DNA from: Patescibacteria group bacterium
Lineage (GTDB): Bacteria > Patescibacteriota > Minisyncoccia > Phycocordibacterales > Phycocordibacteraceae
Assembly: GCA_040384705.1 (NCBI GenBank)
Contig: JAZKIU010000001.1
Location: forward strand, 542,053 to 606,052
Length of the DNA stretch: 64,000 bases
Direction of reading: 5' to 3'
Below are positions 932-40,294 of this stretch, piece by piece. A model generated the notes under the pieces. That model was not told the DNA's origin. It did no database searches and saw only the letters and a program-made list of their open reading frames with translations. Each line of letters starts with the position of its first letter. Within the stretch, counting starts at the first letter, position 1. Position numbers and translations under genes: made by a program.

Positions 932-1558
932 TCAATCCTTTATATGGAGGCCGAATACCCCGGAAAGATAGAGCGCTTGGCCGGTGGTTACGGTCACGTT
1001 CTCGATGCTCGCCTTGTCCAGGCTGATATCCTCGAGGTTGGAGCCCGGGAACTGCACGTCATCAAGCTTCCCGGAGAGGAATTGCGCGCCCGTGAGATTG
1101 CAGTTACGGAACTCCACCTGCTCGAGCTCGGCGCCCAGGAAATCGCAGCCAACCATCTCGCACTTATCGAACAATACTTCCTTAAGCTTGCTGAAGCGGA
1201 AGTTCGCGCCATCGAGCTTGGAGGAGGCGAAGTGCACGTCCTGGAGCGTTGACTCGGCGAGCGTCGTACCTTGGAAGCGCGTTGATTTTATTAATACGCG
1301 GTCGAGCCGGCATTCGTATAGCTCGGTGCCGGTGAAGCTGCATTTATCGAATATGCAGTCGGTGATATCGGCTTCCGCAGTGTTCGCACCATCGAAGCTG
1401 GTGCTTTCGACCACGCACTTATCAAGGGTGAGCTTCTCGATCTTTCGTTCATCGAAGGCGCCACCTACGAGGATGGACTCCTCCATATATATCTCAGCGC
1501 CTGCCTCGGGCATGGCGTGAGCCAATCTCTCGCGCTTAACGTCGGGCTTGCGGACCAT
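932..1558 (-). CDS. Pentapeptide-repeat protein
   Basis: Translation is almost entirely tandem A(D/N)LxG-like pentapeptides (DVHFASSKLDGANFRFSKLKEVLFDKCEMVGCDFLGAELEQVEF...); ATG at 1558. Confidence 0.85.
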   Translation of the reverse strand: MVRKPDVKRERLAHAMPEAGAEIYMEESILVGGAFDERKIEKLTLDKCVVESTSFDGANTAEADITDCIFDKCSFTGTELYECRLDRVLIKSTRFQGTTLAESTLQDVHFASSKLDGANFRFSKLKEVLFDKCEMVGCDFLGAELEQVEFRNCNLTGAQFLSGKLDDVQFPGSNLEDISLDKASIENVTVTTGQALYLSGVFGLHIKD

Positions 1559-1582
1559 TTCACTATTCTAGCGTATGAGTGA

Positions 1583-1600
1583 TGGGACGATGTTGGAGCC
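1583..1600. repeat. Partial copy (GGGACGATGTTGGAGCC) of the 28-nt module-boundary element
   Basis: 17/18 identity to the 3' half of the element at 1806, 2453 and 3211. Confidence 0.5.
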
Positions 1601-1603
1601 GTA

Positions 1604-1791
1604 ATTGTAAGGTGGTAGTTTGGTATGGGTGCTTGAGCAACCCCAGCGAGGTGATCGGATCAGTATGCCGACCCAAGGCTGTAAGCCAGTGATTATGAGT
1701 GGCCTCGCCGTTAGGTAAGGAAACTCGTCCTGAACGGGACTAACTGGTGCTCAAGCACCCACCCTACGCACCACTGCTGGTGCGTTTTTTG
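1604..1791 (+). ncRNA. Candidate structured small RNA (unknown family) closed by a 13-bp long-range stem and ending in an intrinsic terminator
   Basis: No plausible ORF. GGGTGCTTGAGCA (1627-1639) pairs with TGCTCAAGCACCC (1748-1760), enclosing about 108 nt with internal hairpins (GTCCtgaacGGGAC). Terminator hairpin plus T7 at 1768-1791. Flanked by boundary-element copies. Confidence 0.35.
1768..1791 (+). terminator. Intrinsic terminator (GCACCA-ctgc-TGGTGC + TTTTTTT)
   Basis: Hairpin followed by 7 T. Confidence 0.7.
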
Positions 1792-1805
1792 TAATCACAA
1801 GGTAG

Positions 1806-1833
1806 CTGGGGGTCTGAGACGATGTTGGAACTC
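1806..1833. repeat. 28-nt module-boundary element copy 1 (GCTGGGGGTCTGAGACGATGTTGGAACT)
   Basis: Near-identical to copies at 2453 and 3211. Lies 15 nt after a terminator and 38 nt before a TTGACATATAC promoter. Confidence 0.8.
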
Positions 1834-1871
1834 ATATACGATTCCGGATCCGAATTTGAATAGATTGATAG

Positions 1872-1900
1872 TTGACATATACCTCTTAATATGCTTTTAT
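1872..1900 (+). promoter_or_regulatory. Sigma70-like promoter (TTGACA, 17-nt spacer, extended -10 TGcTTTTAT) upstream of alpha-CTD-like gene
   Basis: TTGACATATAC block shared with the promoter at 2493. Confidence 0.45.
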
Positions 1901-1946
1901 CTTTGCGAAGTACTTTGTTCCAAGACAATAGACATGAGGATGTGTC

Positions 1947-2342
1947 ATGACTTCTCCTTTCAGTGAACACGAAGAGGGATGTGCTCCGCTTCGCCCCTGC
2001 CGCAGCTGCCAAGCTGTGACCTTTCTGAAATCAAAGCTGAACAGCCGAGACTTCTCGGCCTTCATGGGTCTTTGCGGAGTGAGTGTGCCACCCGTGAAGA
2101 CGGAAGACCTCGCTCGCTCGCTCGAGGAGCTCAATTTTTCCGCTCGGACCTTCAACTGCCTGAGGAACGACAACATCAAGACCGTCGGTGACCTCGTTCG
2201 TCAAACGGAAGAAGGCCTGCTTCGAATGCCGAACTTCGGACGTCACGGTCTTGCGGAAATCAAAGAGACGCTGTCCAGTATCGGCCACTGTCTCGGTGAA
2301 CTTCCCTTCGAACCGAGGGTTGTGGCCGACGCTAGCAGCTAG
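1947..2342 (+). CDS. Free-standing RNA polymerase alpha-subunit C-terminal-domain-like protein (HhH) with Cys-rich N-terminal segment
   Basis: Residues about 55-115 (LEELNFSARTFNCLRNDNIKTVGDLVRQTEEGLLRMPNFGRHGLAEIKETL) match the RpoA CTD signature (E. coli ...LELSVRSANCLK...IGDLVQRTE..LLKTPNLGKKSLTEIKDVL). N-terminus has CAPLRPCRSCQ. Confidence 0.7.
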   Translation: MTSPFSEHEEGCAPLRPCRSCQAVTFLKSKLNSRDFSAFMGLCGVSVPPVKTEDLARSLEELNFSARTFNCLRNDNIKTVGDLVRQTEEGLLRMPNFGRHGLAEIKETLSSIGHCLGELPFEPRVVADASS

Positions 2343-2373: not shown

Positions 2374-2410
2374 CCACCCCGCATTTGGATAATGCGGGGT
2401 GAACTTTTTA
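2374..2410 (+). terminator. Intrinsic terminator after alpha-CTD-like gene (CACCCCGCA-loop-TGCGGGGTG + AACTTTTT)
   Basis: 9-bp stem followed by a T-run. Confidence 0.6.
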
Positions 2411-2452
2411 TACAAGGGTTCGAGAATGCTCCAGCCAGTGGGGCTGAGCAGT

Positions 2453-2480
2453 GCTGGGGGTCTGGGACGATGTTGGAACC
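2453..2480. repeat. 28-nt module-boundary element copy 2 (GCTGGGGGTCTGGGACGATGTTGGAACC)
   Basis: Lies between a terminator (2374-2410) and a consensus promoter (2493-2521). Confidence 0.8.
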
Positions 2481-2550: not shown

Positions 2551-3156
2551 ATGTTCCAAGCAATCAAAGATTGGTGGTACAAGCGCCAATCCAAACAGTA
2601 TGCCCGGCTAGTCGTCAAACGGGTGAGGACACAGCCTGAGTCAGGAAATGTGCTTTCTGAACTGGTCTCCCTTAAGCAGGCGATTAAGTTCTGGGGCCTA
2701 ACGTTTACCGACGCAGGCATCACCGAAACTGAATTCAATGCCCTGTGGGAAGAAGCGGTAACACAGAAAGCCCTTAATAGAGACAAATATATCTCCCACA
2801 CGCTACGCGTGTTACGGAAAGAGATCTCTCCCAACCTGTGGCCTCAAATGTCAGAGTGGGGTGCGTTTGAAACGGATCCGTTCTGGCTCGAAGGCCAGAT
2901 CAAAGAATCGGGCCGCTCTCTTGAAGAGTACGGTACCTCGCCCGAAGAGCTTCATCGCTTTCAACGAGAGTGGCACAAGAAGAGCGCTGCTGAAACACTC
3001 GACGAGCTGCGATACAGAACGAGCTACGAACGTCACGGGATGCTGATGAGCATGCTCGTAGAGCACCTTCAGAAGGGCGAACTACCGCCAGAAGAAATCG
3101 GCACTACCCGGGAAGAAATCGAGCAACTTAGGGTTAAGCTCTACGCCAAGCCCTAG
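2551..3156 (+). CDS. Hypothetical protein (201 aa), no recognisable domain
   Basis: Clean ORF with RBS, consensus promoter and its own terminator. Confidence 0.7.
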   Translation: MFQAIKDWWYKRQSKQYARLVVKRVRTQPESGNVLSELVSLKQAIKFWGLTFTDAGITETEFNALWEEAVTQKALNRDKYISHTLRVLRKEISPNLWPQMSEWGAFETDPFWLEGQIKESGRSLEEYGTSPEELHRFQREWHKKSAAETLDELRYRTSYERHGMLMSMLVEHLQKGELPPEEIGTTREEIEQLRVKLYAKP

Positions 3157-3162
3157 AATACT

Positions 3163-3200
3163 CCGTTCGACAAAGCAATTTGTCGGACGGTTTCTTTTTG
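3163..3200 (+). terminator. Intrinsic terminator (CCGTTCGACAAA-gcaa-TTTGTCGGACGG + TTTCTTTTTG)
   Basis: 12-bp stem followed by a T-run immediately after the stop at 3156. Confidence 0.6.
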
Positions 3201-3210
3201 TCTTAAAATT

Positions 3211-3238
3211 GCTGGGGGTCTGGGACGATATTGGAACC
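3211..3238. repeat. 28-nt module-boundary element copy 3 (GCTGGGGGTCTGGGACGATATTGGAACC), array end
   Basis: Follows terminator 3163-3200. No promoter or + strand gene follows. Confidence 0.8.

Positions 3239-33366: not shown

Positions 33367-40294
<6,928 letters not shown>

What the first reader, a model, noticed from the sequence alone, without database searches (positions are those of the whole stretch)
1947..2342. Free-standing RNA polymerase alpha-CTD-like protein
A 131-aa protein whose C-terminal about 60 residues reproduce the HhH alpha-CTD signature of RpoA. It has no NTD (dimerisation/assembly domain) and carries a Cys-rich N-terminus. Such a protein could compete with genuine alpha-CTD for UP elements or activators, or act as a DNA-binding adaptor. 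Stand-alone alpha-CTD paralogs are rare and poorly characterised.
Basis: partly seen in the sequence, partly recalled or inferred. Interest (0 to 1): 0.6.

Follow-up and report, generated by a model that had tools for sequence, protein, structure and literature searches.

The report
Metal-finger plus stand-alone RNA-polymerase alpha-CTD protein
A small chromosomal gene of an ultra-small (Patescibacteria) bacterium encodes a genuine copy of the DNA-binding tail domain of RNA polymerase's alpha subunit, joined by a flexible linker to a previously undescribed His-Cys3 metal-binding module; it belongs to a sizeable uncharacterised family that exists alongside, not instead of, the normal alpha subunit.

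Summary
ORF 1947-2342 (+) encodes 131 aa. Residues 51-110 match Pfam RNA_pol_A_CTD (E 4.6e-21, 74.8 bits against a cut-off of 23.8), and the model superposes on solved alpha-CTDs.

The "Cys-rich N-terminus" is a conserved 45-residue module, H8-x3-C12-x5-C18-x2-C21 plus two helices. It has no Pfam, PDB-sequence or Foldseek-PDB match. NCBI's 92-aa gene model cuts it off.

At least 58 retrieved proteins share this architecture. Nine have two tandem modules and one has two alpha-CTDs. Named hosts are Saccharibacteria, Paceibacterota and Patescibacteria. The genome holds a second paralog.

The alpha-CTD DNA-contact residues are strongly conserved (R265 45/46, N294 44/46, G296 45/46). In one genome with a family member, a full rpoA with its own, more divergent CTD lies 5 kb away. 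The family is therefore an extra paralog, not a split alpha.

The most likely function is a trans-acting, tethered minor-groove DNA-binding transcription accessory factor. This is inferred, not shown.

Alpha-CTD outside RpoA is not rare.

In passing: a 28-nt co-oriented intergenic element brackets the gene, and a structured RNA candidate lies just upstream.

The parts
1865..1901 (+). Promoter-like region of the gene: TTGATA-16-TAATAT (1865-1892) overlapping TTGACA (1873-1878)-17-TTTTAT (1896-1901)
   Evidence: Consensus scan. TTGACA, TAATAT and much of the 5' UTR are conserved in the orthologous locus L001. Function is inferred.
1936..1940 (+). Shine-Dalgarno GAGGA, 6 nt before ATG 1947
   Evidence: Read from the sequence. 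The same GAGGA sits before the ATG of the L001 orthologue. It supports the 131-aa start over NCBI's internal Met40 start at 2064.
1947..2342 (+). CDS, 131 aa: H-C-C-C module, linker, alpha-CTD
   Evidence: The identical 131-aa product was called by another pipeline (P0206).
1947..2081 (+). N-terminal module (aa 1-45): H8-x3-C12-x5-C18-x2-C21 followed by helices 19-30 and 33-42; putative Zn (or Fe-S) site
   Evidence: H8, C12, P14 and C21 are invariant; P17, C18, F26, L27 and L31 are in at least 90% of 30 homologues. pLDDT is 91-94 over residues 11-30 and 83 over residues 31-40; modelled alone, residues 11-40 score 93-94. There are 11 synonymous and 13 non-synonymous codon differences against L001 in codons 1-39. 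No Pfam, PDB-sequence or Foldseek-PDB match.
2082..2108 (+). Linker of variable length (aa 46-54)
   Evidence: Gapped, unconserved columns in A1. The distance from the last Cys to the R265-equivalent ranges from 41 to 58 residues across 43 members.
2097..2300 (+). Alpha-CTD domain (aa 51-118), two helix-hairpin-helix motifs; R67=R265, N70=N268, C71=C269, N96=N294, G98=G296, R99=K297, H100=K298, G101=S299 (E. coli numbering)
2375..2411 (+). Intrinsic terminator (11-bp stem, 7 GC) with T-run; the gene is monocistronic
   Evidence: The hairpin is 89% identical to the one downstream of the L001 orthologue.
1804..1832 (+). Upstream copy of the 28-nt intergenic element (core CTGAGACGATGTT)
2452..2480 (+). 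Downstream copy of the 28-nt intergenic element (GCTGGGGGTCTGGGACGATGTTGGAACC)

Best explanation
The gene encodes a small, separately transcribed, chromosomal transcription-associated DNA-binding protein with three parts. The first is an N-terminal ~45-residue His-Cys3 metal-binding module. The second is a flexible linker of variable length. The third is a bona fide RNA polymerase alpha-CTD that keeps the residues alpha uses to insert into the minor groove of A/T-rich DNA. It is an additional paralog that coexists with a normal alpha subunit. The proposed mechanism is as follows. The alpha-CTD binds promoter-upstream, UP-element-like DNA, and possibly the partners that alpha-CTD normally touches. 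The metal module is the anchor: either it self-associates or it docks on RNAP, sigma or another factor. The protein would then act in trans as an extra tethered alpha-CTD, the same logic by which the alpha NTD tethers the CTD to RNAP, and close to the logic of WhiB7 (metal-cluster domain on sigma region 4 plus an AT-hook upstream of -35). Shown here: domain identity, fold, conservation of the DNA-contact residues, conservation and modularity of the H-C-C-C module, the monocistronic unit, paralogy with rpoA, and a Patescibacteria host range among the named sources. Inferred: metal binding, DNA binding, the partner of the N-module, and the effect on transcription.
For: Alpha-CTD identity comes from PF03118 at 74.8 bits, PDB hits that are all alpha subunits, and Foldseek TMt 0.85-0.97 to alpha-CTD structures, including DNA-bound ones. 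The DNA-binding '265 determinant' is conserved in 46 single-module proteins (the query and 45 retrieved relatives): R265 45/46, N268 34/46, N294 44/46, G296 45/46, K297 as R or K 38/46, S299 36/46. The 261 determinant is variable. The family CTD has a median pI of 9.2. The N-module is a real domain: H/C/C/C are invariant or nearly so, pLDDT exceeds 90, it occurs as one or two tandem copies before one or two alpha-CTDs, and the linker varies from 41 to 58 residues. The gene has its own promoter, SD and terminator. It is not a replacement for the alpha CTD. L064 carries a member (P0155) and, 5 kb away, a 316-aa rpoA with PF01193, PF01000 and PF03118 in the rpoA-rplQ cluster. That RpoA CTD scores 59.8 bits, is 40% identical to E. 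coli, and lacks N268, N294 and K297. The family member's CTD scores 88.6 bits, is 51% identical to E. coli, and is only 35% identical to its host's RpoA CTD. The context is chromosomal core: rpoB, rpoC, dnaE, smc, rnr and thrS are in the window. No member was found in the phage or plasmid collections or in PHROGs.
Against: There is no experimental or contextual evidence for any partner. No gene neighbour is conserved across 11 loci. The query itself has H and G at the K298 and S299 positions, so its DNA affinity may be weaker than the family norm. The 261 determinant, which contacts sigma region 4 in E. coli, is not conserved. Metal binding rests on conservation alone. No coordinates, multimer prediction or fold match for the N-module were obtainable. 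The comparison with the host RpoA CTD rests on a single genome, and the rpoA of this window's own genome was not seen.
Confidence: 0.5

Rival explanations
1. Decoy or anti-activator. The free alpha-CTD titrates transcription activators, or occupies UP-like DNA without recruiting RNAP, and so lowers activator- or UP-dependent transcription.
For: The protein keeps the alpha-CTD fold and DNA-contact residues and lacks the NTD that would assemble it into RNAP.
Against: A pure decoy does not need a strictly conserved, duplicable metal module on a flexible tether. The activator-contact patches (261, and part of 287) vary across the family. In the one genome where both are seen, the host's own RpoA CTD differs strongly from the family CTD (35% identity), so the two would not obviously share partners.
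Confidence: 0.15
2. Redox- or metal-sensing switch. The H-C-C-C site (Zn-thiolate or Fe-S) senses oxidants or metal status and gates the activity of the alpha-CTD, by analogy with ZAS anti-sigma factors, WhiB-like proteins or Spx.
For: The His and Cys ligands are invariant. Three-Cys-one-His sites can hold Zn or Fe-S clusters (general knowledge). Patescibacteria carry few classical regulators (general knowledge).
Against: No profile similarity to zf-HC2, WhiB or any other Pfam family, even at E<=10. The spacing H-x3-C-x5-C-x2-C differs from ZAS (H-x3-C-x2-C). No stress-gene neighbourhood is conserved; adjacency to grpE/dnaK/dnaJ is seen in L064, L065 and L066 only.
Confidence: 0.15
3. Sequence-specific regulator of the 28-nt intergenic element that brackets the gene (autoregulation plus a regulon of small cassette-like genes).
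For: The element flanks the gene on both sides, 80-120 nt from its ends, in the window, L002 and L006, and in diverged form in L001. In L006 it sits 0-4 nt upstream of -35 hexamers, which is the alpha-CTD position. The family protein is the only predicted DNA-binding protein seen in these arrays.
Against: Seven other family loci lack the element. Motif-retrieved arrays such as L053 and L050 lack the gene. Within a locus all copies are co-oriented whatever the gene direction, which does not fit a promoter-bound activator site. The element is G/C-rich, whereas alpha-CTD reads A/T-rich minor grooves.
Confidence: 0.1
4. Annotation artefact or decaying fragment. Only the 92-aa product from Met40 (NCBI model) is made, or the ORF is a degenerating partial duplicate of the 3' end of rpoA.
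For: PGAP annotated 92 aa, and 104 aa for the paralog. E. coli RpoA aligns from residue 219, which includes linker-like sequence.
Against: The first 39 codons are conserved at the protein level in at least 58 proteins, with invariant H and C residues, and show an excess of third-position changes against L001. A conserved SD sits before ATG 1947. The paralog also has the full module when read from its upstream ATG (P0207). The family CTD is closer to the Pfam consensus than a co-resident RpoA CTD is, which argues against recent duplication or decay.
Confidence: 0.03

Closest known systems
C-terminal domain of the bacterial RNA polymerase alpha subunit (RpoA alpha-CTD, Pfam PF03118)
   Same: Same domain by profile (74.8 bits) and the same double helix-hairpin-helix fold (TMt 0.85-0.97). 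The R265, N268, C269, N294 and G296 DNA-contact residues are retained. The domain sits at the end of a flexible linker.
   Different: No alpha NTD, so it cannot be an RNAP core subunit. It is not in the rpsD-rpoA-rplQ cluster. It is only 33-35% identical to a co-resident Patescibacteria-type RpoA CTD. The 261 patch is not conserved. It is fused to an unrelated metal module.
Other non-RpoA alpha-CTD proteins in metagenomes (multi-alpha-CTD repeat proteins; sigma-region-4, HTH or T5orf172-like fusions; alpha-CTD-like segment of BREX PglW; NCBIfam PRK07758 95-aa proteins)
   Same: They use alpha-CTD as an accessory module outside RNAP. Many are uncharacterised.
   Different: None of the 150 non-family proteins retrieved carries the H-x3-C-x5-C-x2-C module. 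The query scores far below the PRK07758 cut-off (15 vs 115 bits) and the PglW cut-off (15.7 vs 990).
WhiB7-type regulators of Actinobacteria (functional analogy only; from general knowledge)
   Same: A small protein with a Cys-ligated metal domain followed by a minor-groove, A/T-preferring DNA-binding element that acts just upstream of -35.
   Different: No sequence or profile similarity. The ligand spacing and order differ. The DNA-binding element is a folded alpha-CTD rather than an AT-hook. Binding to sigma is untested here.
Zinc-binding anti-sigma (ZAS, zf-HC2) motif H-x3-C-x2-C
   Same: A His-x3-Cys start and a CxxC pair in a short N-terminal module of a transcription-related protein.
   Different: The spacing is H-x3-C-x5-C-x2-C. 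There is no Pfam zf-HC2 hit even at E<=10. There is no adjacent sigma factor gene.

Membership tests
RNA_pol_A_CTD domain (PF03118) | Profile score above Pfam's gathering threshold | tested here: met
   74.8 bits against a cut-off of 23.8, E=4.6e-21, aa 51-110 covering profile positions 7-66 of 67.
RNA_pol_A_CTD domain (PF03118) | Compact double helix-hairpin-helix fold | tested here: met
   AF2 pLDDT is 90-97 over aa 51-120. Foldseek to 1lb2, 3n4m, 9zum, 7vpd and others gives TMt 0.85-0.97 and rmsd 0.3-2.1 A.
RNA_pol_A_CTD domain (PF03118) | DNA-binding '265 determinant' (R265, N268, C269, G296, K298, S299, plus N294) | tested here: met
   The query has R67, N70, C71, N96, G98 and R99, but H100 and G101 at positions 298 and 299. 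Family counts: R265 45/46, N268 34/46, N294 44/46, G296 45/46, S299 36/46. Actual DNA binding was not tested.
RpoA, RNAP alpha subunit (TIGR02027 / NF003513) | Full-length equivalog score | tested here: not met
   79.7 bits against 302, and 66.6 against 227.8. Only the C-terminal ~65 profile positions match.
RpoA, RNAP alpha subunit (TIGR02027 / NF003513) | N-terminal dimerisation and assembly domains (PF01193, PF01000) | tested here: not met
   No hit. No alpha-NTD-like sequence anywhere in the window by tblastn.
RpoA, RNAP alpha subunit (TIGR02027 / NF003513) | Location in the rpsM-rpsK-rpsD-rpoA-rplQ cluster | tested here: not met
   Neighbours are a histidine kinase, a pentapeptide-repeat protein, a 201-aa hypothetical protein and a small 114-aa membrane-like ORF that was not scanned. 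In L064 the true rpoA-rplQ cluster is separate from the family gene.
   The only other hit is RAD51D_N at E=0.027, 15.1 bits, below its cut-off of 27.3.
ZAS / zf-HC2 anti-sigma zinc motif | H-x3-C-x2-C motif and profile match | tested here: not met
   The spacing is H-x3-C-x5-C-x2-C. No Pfam hit for N-terminal modules at E<=10, apart from sub-threshold Zn-ribbon noise.
NCBIfam PRK07758 (95-aa stand-alone alpha-CTD-like hypothetical proteins) | Equivalog score | tested here: not met
   15.2 bits against a cut-off of 115.
H-C-C-C + alpha-CTD family (defined here) | H-x3-C-x5-C-x2-C within the first ~20 residues, two helices, a variable linker, a C-terminal alpha-CTD, and total length 114-142 aa (165-220 aa with duplicated modules) | tested here: met
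   The query aligns end to end with 29 members. 58 of 208 retrieved proteins carry the motif. The paralog P0207 is in the same genome.
H-C-C-C + alpha-CTD family (defined here) | Metal (Zn or Fe-S) actually bound by H8, C12, C18 and C21 | not testable with these tools
   Only conservation and a confident model without coordinates are available.

The most novel reading that the evidence does not exclude
In Patescibacteria the RpoA CTD has drifted away from the canonical UP-element-reading form. A separate H-C-C-C/alpha-CTD protein supplies that function in trans: its metal module docks on RNAP or sigma (possibly in a redox- or metal-dependent way) and its canonical alpha-CTD reads promoter-upstream DNA. 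This would be a detachable, regulatable 'third alpha-CTD'.
Probability: 0.15. Interest if true: 0.75.

Novelty: new variant of a known kind. Interest (0 to 1): 0.5.

Why it matters
Alpha-CTD is the textbook hub through which UP elements and class I activators recruit bacterial RNA polymerase, and it is normally thought of only as part of alpha. This work delineates a family in which a canonical alpha-CTD is uncoupled from RNAP and tethered to a new metal-binding module. The named hosts are organisms with very small genomes and few recognisable regulators. In the one genome where both could be compared, the free copy is more canonical than the polymerase's own CTD.

If the protein acts at promoters, it would be a compact regulatory device in the Candidate Phyla Radiation, and a natural experiment on what a free alpha-CTD does.

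There is also a practical point. Public annotation truncates both paralogs in this genome (92 and 104 aa instead of 131 and 130), which removes the conserved module. The module deserves its own profile.

Tried and rejected
- **Genome search for this organism.** Its rpoA and the second paralog were not recovered. The protein scan of GTDB representatives gave no confirmed locus. P0001, P0003 and P0207 are not on record in the contig index.
- **N-module profile search** against the 5.8-billion-protein set gave nothing at E<=0.01, because the profile is too short.
- **Phage or plasmid origin is rejected.** There was no PHROG hit. tblastn against phages and plasmids hit only rpoA genes, and none covered at least 80% of the query.
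- **Defence-system membership is rejected.** There was only a 17-bit local match to the alpha-CTD-like part of PglW.
- **A conserved operon partner is rejected.** The 201-aa neighbour, the pentapeptide protein and the 114-aa ORF are not near family genes elsewhere.
- **'Split alpha' is rejected** on L064, where a full rpoA with its own CTD coexists with a family member.
- **Sigma-54 and ECF readings of the 28-nt element** were considered by eye and dropped because the spacing is wrong or no -10 partner is shared. An attC or dif-like reading could not be supported, because no inverted arms were seen.
- **Literature searches** (7 of 10 used) found nothing on stand-alone alpha-CTD proteins, this family or the element.

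Full report
**1. Observation**

The window has an ATG-initiated ORF at 1947-2342 (+) encoding 131 aa. Residues 51-110 match Pfam PF03118 (RNA_pol_A_CTD) over profile positions 7-66 of 67, with E=4.6e-21 and 74.8 bits against a gathering score of 23.8. The only other Pfam hit is a sub-threshold RAD51D_N match at E=0.027.

NCBIfam RpoA equivalogs match only through their last ~65 positions, at 67-80 bits against cut-offs of 228-302. All 55 PDB sequence hits are RNAP alpha subunits; the best is the Caulobacter alpha-CTD at E=2.6e-16 and about 48% identity.

An AlphaFold2 model built from 30 family sequences has mean pLDDT 89.3. Its C-terminal half superposes on solved alpha-CTDs, including DNA-, CAP- and sigma-bound ones, with target TM-scores of 0.85-0.97.

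**2. True gene model**

NCBI's annotation of the source genome starts this gene at Met40, giving 92 aa. The source is a Patescibacteria MAG on a 640,007-nt contig, and the annotated protein is MES2995031.1. Four lines of evidence support the 131-aa form:
- A GAGGA Shine-Dalgarno lies 6 nt before ATG 1947, and it is conserved in the orthologous locus L001.
- The first 39 codons differ from L001 by 11 synonymous and 13 non-synonymous codons, with an excess of third-position changes.
- The N-terminal 45 residues align across the whole family, with invariant residues.
- The region is modelled with pLDDT above 90.

The gene is monocistronic. It has a promoter-like region at 1865-1901, largely conserved with L001, and a strong intrinsic terminator at 2375-2401 followed by a T-run.

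**3. The family**

An exhaustive HMMER search of 1.84 billion cluster representatives gave 9,391 hits at E<=1e-3. The best 150 contain no full-length RpoA. Most are other alpha-CTD-bearing proteins, with up to 11 tandem alpha-CTDs.

About 30 of them are 114-142-aa proteins that align with the query from residue ~1-7 to ~116-128. Their alignment (A1) shows:
- Invariant H8, C12, P14 and C21.
- At least 90% conservation of P17, C18, F26, L27 and L31 in the N-terminal part.
- At least 90% conservation of R67, L72, T79, R93, N96, G98, L109 and G113 in the alpha-CTD.

The N-terminal signature is H-x3-C-x-P-x2-P-C-x2-C followed by two helices (19-30 and 33-42 in the model). C43 of the query is not conserved.

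Nine have two tandem modules before a single alpha-CTD, and one (P0029) has one module before two alpha-CTDs. The module is therefore an autonomous, duplicable domain.

It has no Pfam match even at E<=10, no PDB sequence relative and no Foldseek match in the PDB.

A degenerate DNA pattern for the module hit only two of 185,579 GTDB representative genomes. Both are Candidatus Saccharibacteria, and both encode family members. Another member is annotated as Paceibacterota. The window's genome carries a second paralog, P0207, of 130 aa. It overlaps P0003, which is 68% identical to the query. It has a complete module and was likewise truncated in the public annotation. It is not in this window.

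**4. What the alpha-CTD retains**

I mapped 46 single-module proteins (the query and 45 retrieved relatives) onto E. coli numbering. The DNA-binding '265 determinant' is strongly conserved:

| E. coli residue | Family count |
|---|---|
| R265 | 45/46 |
| N268 | 34/46 |
| C269 | 26/46 |
| N294 | 44/46 |
| G296 | 45/46 |
| K297 (as R or K) | 38/46 |
| K298 (as R or K) | 25/46 |
| S299 | 36/46 |

The 261 determinant, which contacts sigma region 4 in E. coli, is variable. T285 and E286 are conserved, as they are in alpha generally.

The query itself has R67, N70, C71, N96, G98 and R99, but H100 and G101 at positions 298 and 299. The family CTD is basic (median pI 9.2); the query's CTD has pI 6.1. 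The linker between the module and the CTD varies in length: the distance from the last Cys to the R265-equivalent is 41-58 residues. That is what one expects of a flexible tether.

**5. Relation to the real alpha subunit**

The window contains rpoB (37115-40294, -) and rpoC (33367-37122, -), together with dnaE, smc, rnr and thrS. It contains no rpoA. The context is therefore core chromosome.

The rpoA of this genome could not be reached. One family locus, L064, is informative instead. The member P0155 (132 aa, 51% identical to the query) lies 5 kb from a 316-aa rpoA carrying PF01193, PF01000 and PF03118, in the usual rpoA-rplQ-rplM-rpsI arrangement. The family is therefore an extra paralog, not a split-off CTD.

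| Feature | Co-resident RpoA CTD (L064) | Family member P0155 |
|---|---|---|
| PF03118 score | 59.8 bits | 88.6 bits |
| Identity to E. coli alpha-CTD | 40% | 51% |
| N268 / N294 / K297 | A / G / P | all kept, along with the rest of the DNA-contact set |

The two CTDs in that genome are only 35% identical to each other. The free copy is thus not a recent duplicate of the 3' end of rpoA, and in this one case it is the more canonical of the two. This is a single genome, so the generality is untested.

**6. Context**

Across 11 family loci from different organisms there is no conserved neighbour. Three loci put the gene convergent with grpE/dnaK/dnaJ (L064, L065 and L066; L064 and L065 are near-identical contigs). 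Others place it next to tRNA synthetases, type IV pilus genes or small hypothetical genes. No member is found in the phage or plasmid collections, PHROGs or PADLOC, apart from a 17-bit local match to the alpha-CTD-like part of PglW.

**7. Mechanism**

The following points are shown:
- The protein has a genuine alpha-CTD with its DNA-contact residues.
- That domain sits on a variable linker.
- It is preceded by a conserved His-Cys3 module.
- The gene is expressed from its own unit.
- It is present in addition to rpoA.

The rest is inferred. The module binds a metal, either Zn or possibly an Fe-S cluster, in a treble-clef-like arrangement: an HxxxC knuckle plus a CxxC at the N-terminus of a helix. 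It serves as the anchor, by self-association or by docking on RNAP, sigma or another factor. The alpha-CTD binds A/T-rich minor groove upstream of promoters. This would give a trans-acting extra alpha-CTD. The nearest functional analogy, from general knowledge, is WhiB7, which combines a metal-cluster domain on sigma region 4 with an AT-hook upstream of -35. There is no sequence relationship to WhiB7.

I put about 0.5 on this class of mechanism. The rivals are:
- A decoy or anti-activator (0.15).
- A redox or metal switch (0.15, and partly compatible with the main model).
- A specific regulator of the flanking 28-nt element (0.1).
- An annotation artefact or pseudogene (0.03).

**8. Comparison and novelty**

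As a domain this is a member of PF03118; as a protein it is not RpoA. Alpha-CTD outside RpoA is common in metagenomes, so 'rare' is not correct. I found no paper on any such protein or on this family.

The new element is the H-C-C-C module and its exclusive pairing with alpha-CTD in every host that a source names (all Patescibacteria). I rate this a new variant of a known kind, with interest 0.5. It is solid and cleanly delineated, with an attractive but untested mechanism.

**9. Seen in passing**

*The 28-nt element.* The gene is bracketed by copies of GCTGGGGGTCTGGGACGATGTTGGAACC. Copies lie at 1804-1832, 2452-2480 and 3210-3238, with a degenerate copy at 1572-1600. These are the only copies in 64 kb, against 0 expected by chance. 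Further findings:
- The 22-nt core occurs exactly in 53 metagenome stretches, many from 0.1-um groundwater fractions.
- It is arrayed with up to 11 copies in 6 kb. Median spacing is 575 nt, and within any one locus all copies lie on the same strand, whichever strand the genes are on.
- 57% of copies follow a T-run within 40 nt, against 17% for control positions.
- A subset carries a conserved 3' extension followed by an SD and ATG.
- In L006 the reverse complement sits 0-4 nt upstream of -35 hexamers.
- The element flanks the family gene in the four closest loci but is absent from seven others.

Its function is unresolved. It could be a promoter-upstream element or a cassette/recombination boundary.

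*A structured RNA candidate.* Just upstream of the gene, ~1627-1791 folds into a stable structure (z=-4.2). Its 13-bp closing stem shows three compensatory changes against a homologue in L050. It has no Rfam family.

Noticed in passing
window 1572-1600, 1804-1832, 2452-2480, 3210-3238 (+); arrays in L053, L050, L055, L048, L002, L006 and about 45 other loci: A 28-nt non-palindromic intergenic element, GCTGGGGGTCTGGGACGATGTTGGAACC. The 22-nt core occurs exactly in 53 metagenome stretches. It is arrayed at about 0.3-1 kb spacing with one small gene per unit. All copies within a locus are on the same strand regardless of gene direction. It often lies 10-30 nt after a terminator. Sometimes it is extended by TGCAACATATGTTAGGTTCTGTC followed by an SD and ATG. 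In L006 the reverse complement abuts -35 hexamers. It may be a cassette-boundary or recombination site, or a promoter-upstream element. No Rfam or literature match.
   Followed up: partly
window ~1627-1791 (+); homologue at L050:1827-2005: Candidate structured non-coding RNA of about 135 nt plus an intrinsic terminator (1766-1785 and T-run). MFE is -78.5 kcal/mol with z=-4.2. The 13-bp closing stem (1626-1639 with 1748-1761) has three compensatory changes against L050, and the internal blocks are conserved. No Rfam family at gathering or E<=1 thresholds.
   Followed up: partly
window 2064-2342 (NCBI model) against 1947-2342; paralog P0003/P0207 elsewhere on the same contig: Public annotation truncates both H-C-C-C/alpha-CTD paralogs of this genome, giving 92 and 104 aa instead of 131 and 130. 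This removes the conserved metal-binding module.
   Followed up: yes
L064:10019-10399 (-) compared with L064:5001-5399 (+): In a genome with a family member, the genuine RpoA CTD is the less canonical of the two (PF03118 59.8 against 88.6 bits) and lacks N268, N294 and K297. This raises the question of whether the Patescibacteria RpoA CTD has lost UP-type DNA reading.
   Followed up: partly
window 2551-3156 (+): A 201-aa hypothetical protein behind a perfect consensus promoter (TTGACA-17-TATAAT, 2493-2521) and before a strong terminator (3163-3190). It has no significant Pfam match (best sub-threshold hit Not3, E=0.0025, 17.7 bits against a cut-off of 25.8) and no NCBIfam, PHROG or PADLOC hit, and no homologue in any fetched locus.
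   Followed up: partly
window 932-1558 (-): Pentapeptide-repeat protein (Pentapeptide_4, 106 bits; weak similarity to MfpA/Qnr and HalA models, far below their cut-offs). A 95%-identical copy occurs in groundwater contig L030, which ends at a copy of the 28-nt element.
   Followed up: no
proteins P0004, P0008, P0023, P0066, P0189, P0175 (28 hits): Many uncharacterised alpha-CTD architectures exist: 11 tandem alpha-CTDs in a 1031-aa protein; an N-terminal domain that by eye resembles T5orf172/GIY-YIG (not profile-tested) followed by 2-3 alpha-CTDs; sigma-70 region 4 plus alpha-CTD; and a protein that JGI names 'lambda repressor-like predicted transcriptional regulator' that also has an alpha-CTD.
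   Followed up: no
L006:1171-1292 (+): A LOOT RNA (RF03000, 89.4 bits) lies on the contig that carries family member P0007.
   Followed up: no
window 33367-40294 (-): Compact rpoB (1058 aa) and rpoC (1250 aa) lie 31 kb from the alpha-CTD gene. dnaE, smc, RNase R, thrS, an AddA-like helicase-nuclease and a 905-aa DNA methylase are also in the window.
   Followed up: no
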